From the NCBI RefSeq assembly GCF_045037415.1, contig NZ_CP173438.1: a stretch of DNA of 64,000 nt. The stretch is one strand, 5' to 3'. Below are positions 58,149 through 63,683 of this stretch, one piece after another (positions within the stretch are counted from its first letter, which is position 1; each line of letters starts with the position of its first letter). A program made the position numbers and the translations under genes. This DNA comes from Escherichia coli (GTDB taxonomy: Bacteria; Pseudomonadota; Gammaproteobacteria; Enterobacterales; Enterobacteriaceae). Under the pieces are notes generated by a model. The model worked only from the letters and a program-made list of their open reading frames with translations, searched no databases and was not told the DNA's origin.

Positions 58149-58895
58149 GTGGATGAGGTCGCCTTTAAAAAAGGACATCGTTATATAACGGTGATCTCCG
58201 ATCGCGATGGTCGTGCGCTGGCCTTAACGGACGATCGTGGCACAGAGAGCCTCGCCGGCTATCTTCGCACGCTTACTGACGGGCAGTTGCTGGCTATCAA
58301 AACGCTCTCAATGGACATGAATGCAGGCTATATAAGAGCAGCGCGTATCCACTTACCCTGTGCGGTTGAGAAAATCGCCTTCGACCGCTTCCATGTAGCA
58401 AAGCAACTTGGCGAAGTGGTTGATAAAACCCGTCAGAATGAACATCCGCACCTCCCTGTTGAAAGTTGGCGTCAGGCAAAGGGGACCCGCTTCCTGTGGC
58501 AGTACAGCGATAAATGGATGACCAAATCCAGGCAGGAAAAGCTGATATGGCTGCGTGCACAGATGAAGCTGACAAGCCAGTGCTGGGCGCTGAAAGAGCT
58601 GGCAAAGGATATCTGGAACAGGCCATGGAGTGAGGAAAGACGTAATGACTGGGAGAGATGGCTGGCTCTGGCGGCCAACAGTGACGTTCCTATGATGAAA
58701 AACGCCGCGAAAACGATAGGAAAAAGGCTTTACGGGATCCTGAATGCCATGCGACACCGTGTCTCAAACGGAAACGCGGAGGCGCTTAACAGTAAGATCA
58801 GGCTACTGAGGATAAAAGCCAGGGGATACCGAAATCGGGAGCGCTTTAAGCTGGGCGTGATGTTCCACTACGGGAAACTGAATATGGCGTTCTGA
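58149..58895 (+). pseudogene. ISL3-family transposase fragment, N-terminus disrupted
   Basis: ...VAFKKGHRYITVISDRDGRALALTDDRGTESLAGYL... and conserved C-terminal region; upstream frames broken. Confidence 0.65.
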
Positions 58896-59634
58896 GCCTT
58901 CCCACCATGATCAGGGAAAACCCATGTATCATCAGGTTATTATGTGAGCTGGTAAATCAGATTTTGCATGGACTGAAATCATGCTGTTATTTAGGGATAA
59001 AGAACCGGCTTTTTGTCCCGCCCCCTCGCCATTAATGAAAAAAAGAATGGAATGCTCCCTCTGAGGAGAAGGGCAGTAGAAAAAAGAACCCGCCAGCAAA
59101 AATATTGGGGATGAACAGCTTTCGCTACTCAGATTGCTGGCGGGTATAGTTCCTCATGAAATAAAAATACTACATAATCCTTTTAATGCAAATGATAATC
59201 ATTGTCAATTGTTTGTGCGTGTTTTCTTCATACATGATTGGTAGTAAAGGTGATTCAGGCTATCAGTTTTTGCTGATGATCTTTTTATCTATAGAAAACA
59301 TCAGCCAAGCTGGTTGGTTCAGTAACGCTTTCATCTTTGAGCATTTTATAAAAAATTCTTGAATTGTTAAAATAGATTAAAGTCTGGTAACAGCAAAAGT
59401 TAAACGAGAAATCAAAAGGAGGTCCCAAATCTGAAAATGAAGCATCTGCGTGATGATGTTGCAGCGGGACGTCGTCGGCTGTATATCAGAGCAATCTGTC
59501 CATCCCTGCGTGAAGCCCCGTTACTTTATTCGTACCCCTTATAATGGGGTGTTAGCCAGCCAGACCCGGCATGATTACTGTGAACCGCCCCGGGAATCCT
59601 GGAGACTAAATTCCCTGAGAAAGAGGTAAACAGG

Positions 59635-59961
59635 ATGACTAAAAATACACGTTTTTCCCCCGAAGTCCGTCAACGGGCAGTTCGTATGGTTCTGGAAAGT
59701 CAGGACGAATATGACTCACAATGGGCGGCAATTTGTTCCATAGCTCCAAAGATTGGCTGTACGCCAGAGACTCTGCGTGTCTGGGTTCGCCAGCATGAGC
59801 GGGATACCGGGGGCGGTGATGGTGGGCTCACCACCGCTGAACGTCAGCGTCTGAAAGAGCTGGAACGTGAAAATCGTGAACTGCGCCGCAGTAACGATAT
59901 CCTTCGCCAGGCTTCCGCTTATTTTGCGAAGGCGGAGTTCGACCGCCTCTGGAAAAAATAA
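59635..59961 (+). CDS. IS629-type OrfA
   Basis: 108 aa [41 protein letters not shown]... Confidence 0.9.
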
Positions 59962-60375
59962 TGCCACTGCTGGATAAGCTGCGTGAGCAGTACGGGGTCG
60001 GACCGGTATGCAGTGAACAGCATATTGCCCCGTCAACGTATTACCATTGTCAGCAGCAGCGGCATCATCCTGATAAACGCAGTGCCCGTTGTCAGCGCGA
60101 TGACTGGCTGAAGAGAGAGATACAGCGCGTATACGATGAAAATCATCAGGTGTACGGTGTGCGTAAAGTCTGGCGTCAGTTGTTACGGGAAGGAATCAGG
60201 GTGGCCAGATGTACAGTGGCGCGCCTCATGGCGGTTATGGGACTTGCCGGTGTTCTCCGGGGTAAAAAGGTCCGCACTACCGTCAGCCGGAAAACCGTTG
60301 CTGCAGGTGACCGCGTAAACCGTCAGTTCGTGGCAGAACGTCCTGACCAGCTGTGGGTGGCTGATTTTACTTACG
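59961..60375 (+). pseudogene. IS629-type orfB, 5-prime exon (interrupted by the intron)
   Basis: ...RPDQLWVADFTY then the intron begins GTGTGCCCGGAG. Confidence 0.8.
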
Positions 60376-62646
60376 GTGTGCCCGGAGTTCAGGGCGGGCA
60401 TGGATGCTTAAATGAACCGCGAGTCTGTCTGGAATATTGAGCCGGTAACTCACGATGAGAAACCCAACAATCCCACCGGGTGTGACGGTGGAGAACCTGA
60501 GCGGCAGTGACCTGCGGCATGCCCGCAGGGTGATGTAACCCGCTGACAACGGGGATTGAGGCGAGATCACTAAGCCGAGATGATCCTCAAGGTTAAGTAC
60601 TGAAAGGCTGAAGAACATGAACCCGTTAATCCGCCTCTGTGGGTTGAAAACGTCACCACGGCCTACGTGATCTGACAGGCCGTGCAGGAGGAACTGGCAG
60701 TGATACGTAAGCACTGCCGGTCGAAGGTGTTTTGACATGTATGCGAAACACCGGGGCAGCAGCGTCTATCACGCTTGCGTTGCTGACTTCTGCCAACTTG
60801 CGGCAAGCAAGGATAAAGAGTGCGACGGGCAGCCTCCTCAGTATGCCTGAGTCCAGGCAGGTAAACCGGGGAAGGTCAGCGACGGATGTTAAGGGGGCAT
60901 GGCTCCGATGACGCGCTGGCTGGCGGAGCTTCCGTAGTAGTCCGCGATGGGGAAAGCCCATTACATGGCGAAGGGAAGCAGTTTGAATGTGTTTGCGACG
61001 TGAATTAACTGACCTAACGAGGTGAAGACCTTTGATAATCAGCGAAATGCAACGCAAGCTTGCCACATGGGCAGTCACCGATCCGTCCCTACGGATTCAA
61101 CGGCTGCTGCGTCTGATAACACAACCAGAATGGCTGGCTGAAGCGGCGCGGATCACGCTTTCATCAAAGGGGGCCCATACCCCCGGCGTTGATGGCGTGA
61201 ACAAAACAATGCTACAGGCCAGACTGGCTGTTGAGCTGCAAATCCTCAGGGATGAATTACTCTCAGGCCACTACCAGCCCTTGCCCGCCAGACGGGTTTA
61301 CATCCCTAAAAGCAACGGCAAACTGCGACCACTGGGTATCCCCGCGTTGCGGGATCGTATTGTTCAGCGGGCCATGCTGATGGCGATGGAGCCGATATGG
61401 GAGAGTGATTTTCATACGCTCTCATATGGCTTCCGGCCTGAGCGCAGTGTCCACCACGCGATCCGCACGGTGAAATTACAGCTCACAGACTGTGGTGAAA
61501 CCCGGGGACGCTGGGTGATTGAAGGCGACCTGTCCAGTTACTTCGACACCGTACATCATCGACTGCTGATGAAGGCTGTACGCCGCAGGATCAGTGACGC
61601 ACGTTTCATGACTCTGCTGTGGAAAACCATCAAGGCGGGACATATCGATGTCGGTTTCTTTCGGGCGGCCAGTGAAGGTGTGCCACAGGGCGGTGTTATA
61701 TCGCCGCTATTATCGAACATCATGCTGAATGAGTTCGATCAATACCTGCATGAGCGCTACCTGAGCGGGAAAGCCAGAAAAGATCGGTGGTACTGGAATA
61801 ACAGTATCCAACGGGGCCGAAGTACGGCGGTCAGAGAAAACTGGCAGTGGAAACCCGCGGTGGCGTACTGCCGCTATGCCGATGATTTTGTCCTCATCGT
61901 CAAAGGCACCAAAGCACAGGCGGAAGCCATCAGGGAGGAGTGTCGGGGTGTGCTCGAAGGCAGTCTGAAACTCAGGCTGAACATGGATAAGACTAAAATC
62001 ACCCATGTTAATGACGGCTTTATCTTTCTGGGGCACAGGATCATTCGCAAACGCAGTCGTTATGGCGAGATGCGAGTGGTTCTCAACGATCCCGCAGGAG
62101 AAAGCCAGAAACTTCGCCGCATCGCTGACAGCACTGTTATCAGGCAACTACAGTGAAAGCAAAGTCGATATGGCTGAACAACTCAACCGAAAACTGAAAG
62201 GCTGGGCCATGTTCTATCAGTTCGTTGATTTTAAGGCCAAAGTCTTCAGTTATATCGACCGTGTCGTGTTCTGGAAGCTGGCTCACTGGCTGGCCCGCAA
62301 ATACCGTACAGGTATCGCTTCCCTGATGAGGTGGTGGTGTAAATCACCGAAACCGGGTCAGAGCAAAACGTGGGTTTTATTTGGTAAAACCAATCACGGC
62401 AAGCTCAGCGGCGAAATACTGTACCGGTTGGTGGGGCAAGGCAAGAAGCTGTTCCGCTGGCGGCTACCCGAAGGTAATCCCTATCTGAGGACGGAGACCA
62501 GAAACACGTATACATCGCGCTTTACAGAAGTGGCAATGGCGTTCGCCAGCATTTAAATGGAGAGCCGGATGCGCTGAAAGGTGCACGTCCGGTTCGGGGA
62601 GGAGAGGCAGGGAAATAGTCCGACTACGCCCTGCCTCTTACTCTAC
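60376..62646 (+). mobile_element. bacterial group II intron (about 2.27 kb) inserted in IS629 orfB
   Basis: 5-prime GTGTG...; 3-prime ...CTCTAC; flanking exons rejoin as TAC-GTC-AGC-ACA-TGG (Y V S T W); encodes an RT/maturase. Confidence 0.72.
61032..62556 (+). pseudogene. intron-encoded reverse transcriptase/maturase, frameshifted near 62060-62150
   Basis: RT domain (...YADDFVLIVKG...) in one frame to 62156; maturase X-domain (...KLKGWAMFYQF...) continues in another frame to 62556. Confidence 0.78.
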
Positions 62647-63120
62647 TCAGCACATGGCAGGGCTTCGTCTATGTGGCGTTCATCATTGATGTGTTTGCCG
62701 GATACATCGTGGGGTGGTGGGTTCTCATCGTCTATGGAAACGACATTCGTGCTGGATGCGCTGGAGCAGGCGTTGTGGGCCCGCCGTCCGTCCGGCACCA
62801 TCCATCACAGCGATAAAGGCTCTCAGTATGTGTCACTGGCCTATATGGAGCGATTAAAAGAAGCAAAACTGCTGGCATCAACAGGGAGTACAGGCGACTC
62901 GTATGACAACGCGATGGCGGAGAGCATCAATGGTCTTTACAAAGCGGAGGTAATACACCGTAAGAGCTGGAAAAACCGTGCAGAAGTGGAACTGGCCACA
63001 CTCACGTGGGTGGACTGGTATAACAATCGATGATTGCTGGGAAGGCTGGGCCATACTCCTCCGGCAGAAGCAGAAAAAGCTTATTATGCTTCCATCGGAA
63101 ACAATGATCTGGCAGCCTGA
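62647..63120 (+). pseudogene. IS629-type orfB, 3-prime exon with a frameshift and an in-frame TGA
   Basis: frame after splicing differs from the frame encoding ...TTFVLDALEQALWARR...; TGA at 63031-63033 before the conserved ...YYASIGNNDLAA end. Confidence 0.72.
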
Positions 63121-63683
63121 GTTCACAGATAAAACACTCTCCAGGAAACCCGGGGCGGTTCAGTAATATCTGATCGTAACGGACGGACGCTGGAATTAAC
63201 CGATGACCGCAGCACAGAGAGTAGGGGATGCGGACGGTCAAAGATCGTGGAGTTGGATTTTATAAATCTGTCTCCAGTAGTAGATGAACTGAATACAAAG
63301 TTGCCAGAGAGTGGTCTGTCAGGCAGGGAATCAGAAACCGGATATTATTGACTGGTACATTGTGTCGGGCTGTGTACGTTCTCCCCGGACAGACAGTCTC
63401 AGTTCGTAGAATCTATAAATTACTGCTACTGATGCTGCCGGGGAAAGGTGTAACGAAAAAGCAGCCTCCGTTACCGGACAGCAAGAAGGCTGAATGAAGT
63501 TTATGGCGTTTGTATTTTGTAATGTCTGGCCATGCAGTAAATCCAGACAGGTTTTTATTATCATGTGAAGTATTCTGACATAAAATACTAAATTTCTATT
63601 TTGTGATGAATGCTGCAAAACTGAATCTGCACTCTGATGTAACTTTTATCTGTTTCAGTGAAGCATGCCCACAGATTGAGTTA

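What the first reader, a model, noticed from the sequence alone, without database searches (positions are those of the whole stretch)
58149..63300. Two non-identical ISL3-type transposase fragments flank the IS629/intron complex
The fragment at 58149-58895 encodes ...VISDRDGRALALTDDRGTESLAGYL..., and directly after IS629 (63163-63300) a second, divergent copy of the same region appears (...ISDRNGRTLELTDDRSTESRG...). The two pieces overlap in homology rather than complementing each other, so at least two ISL3-type elements decayed here.
Basis: seen in the sequence. Interest (0 to 1): 0.2.

Follow-up and report, generated by a model that had tools for sequence, protein, structure and literature searches.

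The report
Two dead ISL3 insertion-sequence remnants
Next to the P-fimbriae genes of a pathogenic E. coli lie two broken pieces of two different ISL3-type jumping genes, separated by a third defective jumping gene; this is ordinary mobile-element debris in a virulence island.

Summary

- **Fragment A (58146..58923, +):** this is the right 778 bp of a 1315-bp ISKox3/ISEc53-like ISL3 element. It is 93% nt and 96.8% aa identical to an intact ISKox3. It covers transposase residues about 158-406 plus the right inverted repeat. The left repeat and the N-terminal DNA-binding domains are missing.
- **Fragment B (63163..63221, +; not to 63300):** this is 59 nt, or 20 codons, matching transposase residues 173-192. 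It is real homology. A family HMM run on the six-frame translation of the window scores A at 8e-149 and B at 8e-5, and nothing else scores below E=4.
- **Longer forms of B elsewhere:** in other E. coli the same remnant, with the same right junction, extends to IS nt 225-641 or 1-641 and keeps its own left repeat. It is only about 77% identical to ISKox3, with differences concentrated at third codon positions.

A and B overlap (IS nt 538-641, 75% identity), so they come from two distinct elements. B was cut by a defective IS629-like element that lacks a target duplication and carries a group II intron. About 770 of 5426 complete E. coli genomes share this exact junction. Nothing indicates a function.

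The parts
58146..58923 (+). Fragment A: the right 778 bp (IS nt about 538-1315) of an ISKox3/ISEc53-like ISL3 element, truncated at its left side
   Evidence: It is 97.6% nt identical to L002 1972..2749 and 93.2% nt identical to an intact ISKox3 in L021. PGAP annotates it as an 'ISL3 family transposase, incomplete, missing N-terminus' pseudogene in identical loci.
58149..58895 (+). Open reading frame of fragment A: transposase residues 159-406 of 406. The DDE domain is nearly whole; the Zn-ribbon and HTH domains are missing.
   Evidence: Pfam PF01610 E=1.1e-54, profile positions 3-238 of 240. NCBIfam NF033550 at 202 bits. Alignment A1. The same fragment is frameshifted in strain 755.
58902..58923 (+). 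Right terminal inverted repeat of fragment A (CCACCATGATCAGGGAAAACCC)
   Evidence: It corresponds to the right repeat CCACCATGATCAGGGAAGCCCC of the reference copy, which is bounded by the 8-bp duplication ATCTATTA. No matching left repeat occurs anywhere in the window at up to 3 mismatches.
59581..60375 (+). Left part of the IS629-like IS3-family element, from its left inverted repeat to the intron insertion site
   Evidence: The left repeat TGAACCGCCCCGGG begins at 59581. The Rfam ALIL frameshift pseudoknot lies at 59916..60032. The sequence is collinear with the uninterrupted copy in L001. The flank is CTG on the left and GTA on the right, so there is no target duplication.
60376..62646 (+). 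Group II intron (2271 nt) inserted in the IS629-like transposase gene
   Evidence: It is absent from the otherwise identical locus L001. Rfam Intron_gpII matches 62560..62646. The reverse-transcriptase reading frame is split into 61032..62156 and 62005..62556.
62647..63162 (+). Right part of the IS629-like element, ending in its right inverted repeat
   Evidence: A premature TGA lies at 63031..63033, and PGAP notes an 'internal stop' in the identical copy.
63163..63221 (+). Fragment B: 59 nt (IS nt about 583-641; transposase residues 173-192) of a second, divergent ISL3 element
   Evidence: It is contiguous with longer remnants in L017 and L018 (nt 225-641; HMM E=5.6e-69) and in L019 and L020 (nt 1-641, with the left repeat). 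The start is ambiguous by 2 nt (63161-63163), because the CA that ends the IS629-like element also precedes GTA in the longer remnants.
63222..63287 (.). A 66-bp joint segment of unknown origin between the B breakpoint and the sequence shared with sfaC-type loci
   Evidence: In E. coli it is found only in this context: 840 genomes, all at 95% identity or more. Similarity to the region upstream of sfaC starts at 63288.
63684..63917 (-). papI, the neighbouring gene that fixes the context
   Evidence: PGAP annotation of identical loci.

Best explanation
These are two inert remains of two different ISL3-family insertion sequences in the junk-rich border of an ExPEC pathogenicity island, lying between the aerobactin genes and the pap genes.

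**Fragment A.** It is the right 59% of an ISKox3/ISEc53-like element. It keeps the right inverted repeat and most of the DDE domain. It has lost the left repeat and the Zn-ribbon and HTH DNA-binding domains, so it cannot move or make a working transposase.

**Fragment B.** It is the last 59 nt of an older remnant: the left 641 bp of a distinct ISL3 element, only about 77% identical to ISKox3.
- That element's right part was deleted long ago, at a junction now shared by pap- and sfa-type fimbrial loci.
- It also carries a frameshift near codon 166.
- In the lineage of this window, a rearrangement tied to the IS629-like element removed everything left of IS nt 583 and joined B to the A-bearing segment. 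This was either an adjacent deletion or recombination between two copies.
- The IS629-like element itself has no target duplication, has a premature stop and is interrupted by a group II intron.

**Shown:** the identities, extents, overlap and divergence of A and B; the nested series of B truncations; the missing target duplication.
**Inferred:** the order of events and the type of rearrangement. No function is implied.
For: **Family assignment of A.** Pfam 1.1e-54. NCBIfam 202 bits against a cutoff of 180. 97.6% and 93.2% nt identity to full-length copies whose ends are defined by inverted repeats and 8-bp duplications.

**Reality of B.** Shuffle z-score of about 10. A window-wide HMM search gives E=8.2e-5, with the next hit at E=4.8.

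**Longer forms of B.**
- L017 and L018 cover HMM positions 50-194, with E=5.6e-69 for the largest piece.
- L017 and L018 align to IS nt 225-641 at 80% nt identity.
- L019 aligns to IS nt 1-641 and then continues into the window sequence 63161..63491 at 96%.
- EcPF14 carries the full 640 nt at 99.8% next to a PapI-family regulator gene.
- NCBIfam scores the 192-aa conceptual product at E=1e-31.

**Two distinct elements.**
- The overlap is 104 nt at 75% identity.
- B-type differences fall 28/22/78 at codon positions 1/2/3.
- A differs from its closest copy by 14 nt, of which 13 codon changes are nonsynonymous.

**Decay.**
- No left repeat is present in the window.
- A is frameshifted in strain 755.
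- All B forms share the same frameshift.

**IS629 rearrangement.**
- The flanks are CTG and GTA, whereas the copy in L018 has a clean 3-bp duplication, ATT.
- About 772 genomes carry the IS629|B junction.
- No genome carries the reciprocal B-left|IS629-left junction.
Against: - B in the window is only 20 codons, and Pfam does not detect it. Its assignment rests on a purpose-built subfamily HMM and on collinearity with longer remnants in other genomes.
- No intact B-type element was found. It was absent from plasmids, from 100,044 species-representative genomes screened with peptide-derived patterns and from complete E. coli genomes. The parent is therefore inferred, not observed.
- The L002 copy used as first reference has N in place of the first catalytic D (VNEVAF), so it is probably itself defective. 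This is why the ISKox3 copy in L021 was added as a second reference.
- The order of events and the deletion-versus-recombination choice are not resolved.
Confidence: 0.93

Rival explanations
1. Fragment B is a chance resemblance: 20 codons that happen to look like an ISL3 motif, not a transposase remnant.
For: It is very short. Pfam gives no hit on the 62-aa translation. PGAP leaves it unannotated in identical loci.
Against: - The shuffle z-score is about 10.
- B is the only hit other than A in the whole window (E=8.2e-5 against 4.8 for the next).
- Mismatches against the ISL3 reference are biased to third codon positions.
- The same 59 nt are the end of 414-640-nt ISL3 remnants in other genomes, with E values down to 5.6e-69 and 1.5e-144.
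Confidence: 0.01
2. A and B are two pieces of a single ISL3 element that was split and shuffled when the IS629-like element and the intron arrived.
For: Both are on the + strand and flank the IS629-like element. A is a right part, and the B lineage is a left part.
Against: - They overlap by about 104 nt of the element (IS nt 538-641) at only 75% identity.
- A is 93% identical to ISKox3 and B is 77% identical.
- The right part, A, lies upstream of the left part, B.
- The B remnant with the same right junction occurs in loci with no A nearby.
Confidence: 0.02
3. B descends from a local duplicate of the A element that simply decayed faster, rather than from an independent, different IS.
For: Both belong to the same enterobacterial ISL3 subgroup. 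No intact B-type parent was found.
Against: - 22% nt divergence with a 28/22/78 split across codon positions, and 53 synonymous against 45 nonsynonymous codon changes, indicates divergence under coding constraint.
- A differs by only about 2% from live relatives.
- B sits with fimbrial loci that lack A.
Confidence: 0.03
4. The 248-aa reading frame of A is a retained, working product, for example a DNA-binding-deficient transposase that dampens ISL3 transposition.
For: The frame is open from a GTG start to the native stop. It holds an almost complete DDE domain. It is identical in more than 700 genomes.
Against: - The identity is explained by clonal descent (ST131-type and related lineages).
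- The fragment is frameshifted in strain 755.
- 13 of its 14 codon changes relative to the closest copy are nonsynonymous.
- No promoter or ribosome-binding evidence was sought or seen.
Confidence: 0.03

Closest known systems
ISKox3 / ISEc53 (ISL3 family; names as given by NCBI PGAP to E. coli and Klebsiella copies)
   Same: - Fragment A is 93.2% nt and 96.8% aa identical to an intact 1316-bp ISKox3 with a 406-aa transposase (L021).
- It is 97.6% nt identical to another E. coli copy (L002).
- It has the same type of right inverted repeat.
- Hits named 'ISEc53 family' are 94% identical to it.
   Different: - A lacks the first 537 bp or so: the left repeat, the Zn-ribbon and the HTH domain.
- Fragment B and its longer forms are only 77-80% identical to these elements.
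- B would therefore count as a different IS, not an isoform.
The 'helix-turn-helix domain-containing protein' pseudogene annotated by PGAP beside papI/sfaC-type regulator genes (e.g. strains Rb-3, MMC-J-0085, EcPF14)
   Same: This is the same remnant as fragment B. It has the same right junction (IS nt 641 | TAGGGGATGCGG) and the same frameshift, and is 96-100% identical over the shared 59-61 nt.
   Different: Those copies keep 414-640 nt. The window keeps 59 nt, because the IS629-like element now abuts IS nt 583. At that size PGAP does not annotate it.
IS629-type IS3-family elements carrying a group II intron
   Same: The element between A and B has IS3-type inverted repeats and the ALIL frameshift pseudoknot. 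Its intron has a Rfam domain V/VI match. The same IS/intron junction occurs in at least 1438 complete E. coli genomes.
   Different: This copy has no target duplication and has a premature stop. Its intron-encoded protein frame is split.

Membership tests
ISL3 family insertion sequence (fragment A) | DDE transposase of the ISL3 type (Pfam PF01610 / NCBIfam NF033550) | tested here: met
   PF01610 E=1.1e-54, profile positions 3-238 of 240. NF033550 at 202 bits against a cutoff of 180, profile positions 129-370 of 370.
ISL3 family insertion sequence (fragment A) | N-terminal Zn-ribbon (PF14690) and HTH (PF13542) domains, as in full-length relatives | tested here: not met
   Homology starts at transposase residue 158. 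Full-length relatives carry both domains. They are absent because the fragment is truncated, which makes A a remnant rather than a non-member.
ISL3 family insertion sequence (fragment A) | Two terminal inverted repeats flanked by an 8-bp target duplication | tested here: not met
   Only the right repeat is present, at 58902..58923. No left repeat occurs in the window at up to 3 mismatches. Reference copies show both repeats and 8-bp duplications: ATCTATTA in L002 and ATATAAAT in L021.
ISKox3 (isoform-level identity) - fragment A | Near-identity to the named element. By the ISfinder convention as I recall it, this means roughly 90% nt or more, or 95% aa or more. | tested here: met
   93.2% nt over 783 nt and 96.8% aa over 248 residues against the PGAP-named ISKox3 in L021. 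ISfinder itself could not be queried.
ISL3 family insertion sequence (fragment B) | Significant homology to an ISL3 transposase | tested here: met
   - In the window alone, the subfamily HMM gives E=8.2e-5, but Pfam gives no hit.
- Collinear longer remnants give HMM E=5.6e-69, NF033550 E=1e-31 and blastn E=1.5e-144 against ISKox3.
ISL3 family insertion sequence (fragment B) | Terminal inverted repeat of the ISL3 type | tested here: not met
   There is none in the window. The longest forms of the same remnant (L019, L020) begin with GGGGTTTCCCTTGTTGTGGTGG, matching the ISKox3 left repeat at 20 of 22 positions.
ISKox3 (isoform-level identity) - fragment B | Near-identity to the named element | tested here: not met
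   78.3% nt over 60 nt for the window piece. 77.3% nt and 77.1% aa for the 641-nt form. This is a different ISL3 element.
IS3 family / IS629-like element between the fragments | Inverted repeats, two overlapping frames with a programmed -1 frameshift, and a 3-bp target duplication | tested here: inconclusive
   The repeats and the ALIL pseudoknot are present, and PGAP calls it an 'IS3 family transposase'. The target duplication is absent (CTG against GTA), although a related copy has ATT/ATT. Identity to IS629 by name was not tested against ISfinder.
Group II intron | Catalytic domain V/VI RNA, an intron-encoded reverse transcriptase, and precise absence from an intron-less allele | tested here: met
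   Rfam RF00029 at 64.9 bits, ending exactly at the 3' boundary 62646. The 2271-nt segment is missing from L001. A reverse-transcriptase-like ORF is present but split; it was not scanned against Pfam.

The most novel reading that the evidence does not exclude
The B lineage may represent an ISL3 element that has not been catalogued and may no longer exist intact. Its left 641 bp became fixed just downstream of the papI/sfaC-type regulator gene before P- and S/F1C-type fimbrial clusters spread between islands. In that case it is an old boundary scar recording how these fimbrial operons were first mobilised. The nested truncations (nt 1, 225 and 583) could then serve as a lineage marker for pap/sfa island evolution.
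Probability: 0.15. Interest if true: 0.2.

Novelty: already known. Interest (0 to 1): 0.07.

Why it matters
It matters little. Decayed insertion sequences at the edges of pathogenicity islands are commonplace. Fragment A is already annotated as an ISL3 pseudogene in RefSeq genomes.

There are three small practical gains:
- A 59-nt ISL3 remnant that annotation pipelines miss is now explained.
- The unannotated stretch downstream of papI is shown to be an old IS scar shared by pap- and sfa-type loci.
- The nested truncation series, together with the IS629 copy that lacks a target duplication, gives simple markers for reconstructing how this ExPEC island was assembled.

Tried and rejected
- **Pfam on the 62-aa translation around B:** no hit. 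The fragment is too short, so a subfamily HMM was built from 46 full-length hits instead.
- **tblastn of the 20-aa B peptide against 72,556 plasmids:** the only 100% hits were the same pap loci carried on plasmids. The 85% hits proved to be A-type copies with one substitution.
- **Degenerate-codon scans of 100,044 species genomes:**
  - NGRTLELTDD gave 0 hits.
  - GRTLELTDD gave 8 hits in unrelated phyla, none carrying an ISL3 homologue.
  - No parent of B was found.
- **Search for the reciprocal junction (left part of B joined to the IS629 left end) in 5426 E. coli genomes:** none. A simple insertion intermediate could not be shown.
- **Further ISL3 pieces in the window, such as the missing left half of A:** none found by HMM or by a left-repeat search.
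- **NCBIfam on the small ORFs at 63331..63618 (-), 63348..63497 (+) and 59437..59544 (+):** no hits.
- **Literature search for ISL3, papI and IS629 together:** nothing specific to this locus.
- **L002 as sole reference:** rejected because its transposase has N in place of the first catalytic D. The ISKox3 copy in L021 was added.

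
Full report
**What is in the sequence**

The region 57.6-64.0 kb of the window is the stretch between a DUF1471/TetR/DUF417 gene group and papI. Identical loci occur in hundreds of complete E. coli genomes, including ST131-type strains and Nissle 1917.

In those loci PGAP annotates, in order:
- an 'ISL3 family transposase' pseudogene missing its N-terminus;
- a small phage Rz-like fragment;
- an 'IS3 family transposase' pseudogene with an internal stop;
- papI.

Most of these genomes carry the IS3-family element without the 2271-nt insert that the window has.

**Fragment A**

ORF 58149..58895 (+) reads ...VISDRDGRALALTDDRGTESLAGYL....
- It matches Pfam PF01610 (DDE_Tnp_ISL3) at E=1.1e-54 over profile positions 3-238 of 240.
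- It matches NCBIfam NF033550 at 202 bits, above the 180-bit cutoff, over profile positions 129-370 of 370.

Its full-length relatives are 406-aa transposases with Zn-ribbon, HTH and DDE domains.

One such copy (L002) sits in a 1315-bp element. That element is bounded by the inverted repeats GGGTCTTCCCTTGTTGTGGTGG and CCACCATGATCAGGGAAGCCCC and by the 8-bp duplication ATCTATTA. The window matches it from element nt 538 to the end at 97.6% identity.

Against an intact copy that PGAP names ISKox3 (L021), A is 93.2% nt and 96.8% aa identical.

A is therefore window 58146..58923: the right 778 bp of such an element, including the right repeat at 58902..58923. No left repeat exists anywhere in the window. 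A family HMM finds no N-terminal piece either.

The same fragment carries a frameshift in strain 755. Of the 14 nt differences from the closest copy, 13 of the 14 changed codons are nonsynonymous. Both facts fit decay. That closest copy also looks defective itself (VNEVAF in place of VDEVAF).

**Fragment B**

Directly after the right end of the IS629-like element (...GGCGGTTCA, ending at 63162), the + strand reads VISDRNGRTLELTDDRSTES and then loses all similarity.
- At the DNA level, 63163..63221 aligns without gaps to 58191..58249 with 42/59 identities. The score is 38, against 17.0 ± 2.2 and a maximum of 31 for 500 shuffles.
- Against the ISL3 reference, the differences fall 3/2/12 at codon positions 1/2/3.
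- An HMM built from 46 full-length relatives and run on the six-frame translation of the whole window returns A (E=8e-149) and B (E=8.2e-5; HMM positions 172-194). Nothing else scores below E=4.8.

B is therefore real but only 59 nt long.

**B is the stump of a longer remnant**

The segment 63205..63300 occurs once per genome in 840 E. coli genomes. In a minority of them, PGAP places a 'helix-turn-helix domain-containing protein' pseudogene there.
- In strains Rb-3 (L017) and MMC-J-0085 (L018) the remnant spans element nt 225-641. It is 80% nt identical to the reference, and the HMM scores positions 50-166 at E=5.6e-69 and positions 166-194 at E=2.4e-9.
- In a Logan contig (L019) and in strain EcPF14 (L020) it spans nt 1-641. 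It begins with its own left repeat, GGGGTTTCCCTTGTTGTGGTGG.

All forms share two features:
- the same right junction (element nt 641 | TAGGGGATGCGG...);
- the same 2-nt deletion that breaks the frame near codon 166.

In EcPF14 the neighbour is a PapI-family regulator of an S/F1C-type operon. The scar is therefore older than the present pap locus.

The 641-nt form is 77.3% nt and 77.1% aa identical to ISKox3. Its differences fall 28/22/78 at the three codon positions, with 53 synonymous and 45 nonsynonymous codon changes. That pattern indicates a lineage that diverged while still coding.

**Two elements, not one**

On the 406-residue scale A covers 158-406. B covers 173-192 in the window and 1-192 in its longest form. 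The shared stretch (element nt 538-641) is 75% identical between them.

The overlap, the different distances to ISKox3 (93% against 77%) and the presence of the B scar in loci without A together rule out three alternatives:
- a single split element;
- a locally decayed duplicate of A;
- chance similarity.

**How B got so short**

The IS629-like element runs 59581..63162.
- It has IS3-type inverted repeats and the ALIL frameshift pseudoknot.
- Its flanks are CTG on the left and GTA on the right, so it has no target duplication. A related copy in L018 has a clean ATT/ATT duplication.
- The junction of its right end with B is present in about 772 of 5426 complete genomes.
- The reciprocal junction, with the left part of B joined to the left end of the IS, is present in none.

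The simplest reading is an IS-associated adjacent deletion, or recombination between two copies. Either would have removed B nt 1-582 and joined the pap segment to the A-bearing segment. This step is inferred, not shown.

**Search for the parent of B**

No intact B-type element was found in any of the following:
- plasmids, where the best non-pap matches were A-type copies;
- species-representative genomes, where the peptide-derived patterns gave 0 hits and then 8 chance hits;
- complete E. coli genomes, where only remnants appeared alongside ISKox3 at 78% identity;
- the protein database, where the best hit that is not the remnant itself was 91% identical and carries the same frameshift, and the next was ISKox3 at 81%.

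**Verdict**

The feature is ordinary mobile-element debris with no sign of function. It is a known kind of thing, and fragment A is already annotated.

Noticed in passing
window 59581..63162: The IS629-like element is defective in several ways:
- it has no target duplication (flanks CTG and GTA);
- it has a premature TGA at 63031..63033 in the second transposase frame;
- it carries a 2271-nt group II intron at 60376..62646.

The same IS/intron junction is found in at least 1438 complete E. coli genomes, so intron-bearing copies of this IS are widespread.
   Followed up: partly
window 61032..62556: The intron-encoded protein is split into two overlapping frames: 374 aa at 61032..62156 and 183 aa at 62005..62556. 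This suggests a frameshift near 62080, either a dead maturase/RT or a sequencing error. It was not checked against other copies.
   Followed up: no
window 59296..59418 (+) and 59437..59544 (+): Rfam STnc490 (an Hfq-binding sRNA) matches above its gathering score, at 65.5 bits. It is followed directly by a fragment that PGAP calls 'lysis system i-spanin subunit Rz' or a hypothetical protein missing its N-terminus in identical loci. This looks like a prophage lysis-region remnant between fragment A and the IS629-like element.
   Followed up: no
window 63355..63533 (-) and 63422..63550: Rfam AS-pc02 ('antisense to pHK01_099') matches at 58.6 bits. The same stretch is 72-80% nt identical to plasmid genes annotated as 'ANR family transcriptional regulator'. 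No family hit was obtained for the local ORFs. The region downstream of papI may hold a decayed ANR-type gene.
   Followed up: partly
window 63222..63287: A 66-bp segment lies between the ISL3-B breakpoint and the sequence shared with regions upstream of sfaC. It has no match elsewhere in E. coli outside this context. Its origin is unknown.
   Followed up: partly
window 55652..55656 and 29004..30336: Strain SK1144 (L001) carries an extra IS3-family element inserted at the point corresponding to window 55652..55656. The window lacks that insertion there, but has a 98% identical copy at 29004..30336 on the other strand.
   Followed up: no
proteins P0012 and P0029 (not in the window): Database proteins named 'type II secretion system protein GspL' and 'Ni/Fe-hydrogenase cytochrome b subunit' carry an ISL3 DDE domain that is 85-100% identical to fragment A. 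They are probably gene calls reading from a disrupted host gene into an inserted ISL3 copy, so these names are unreliable.
   Followed up: no
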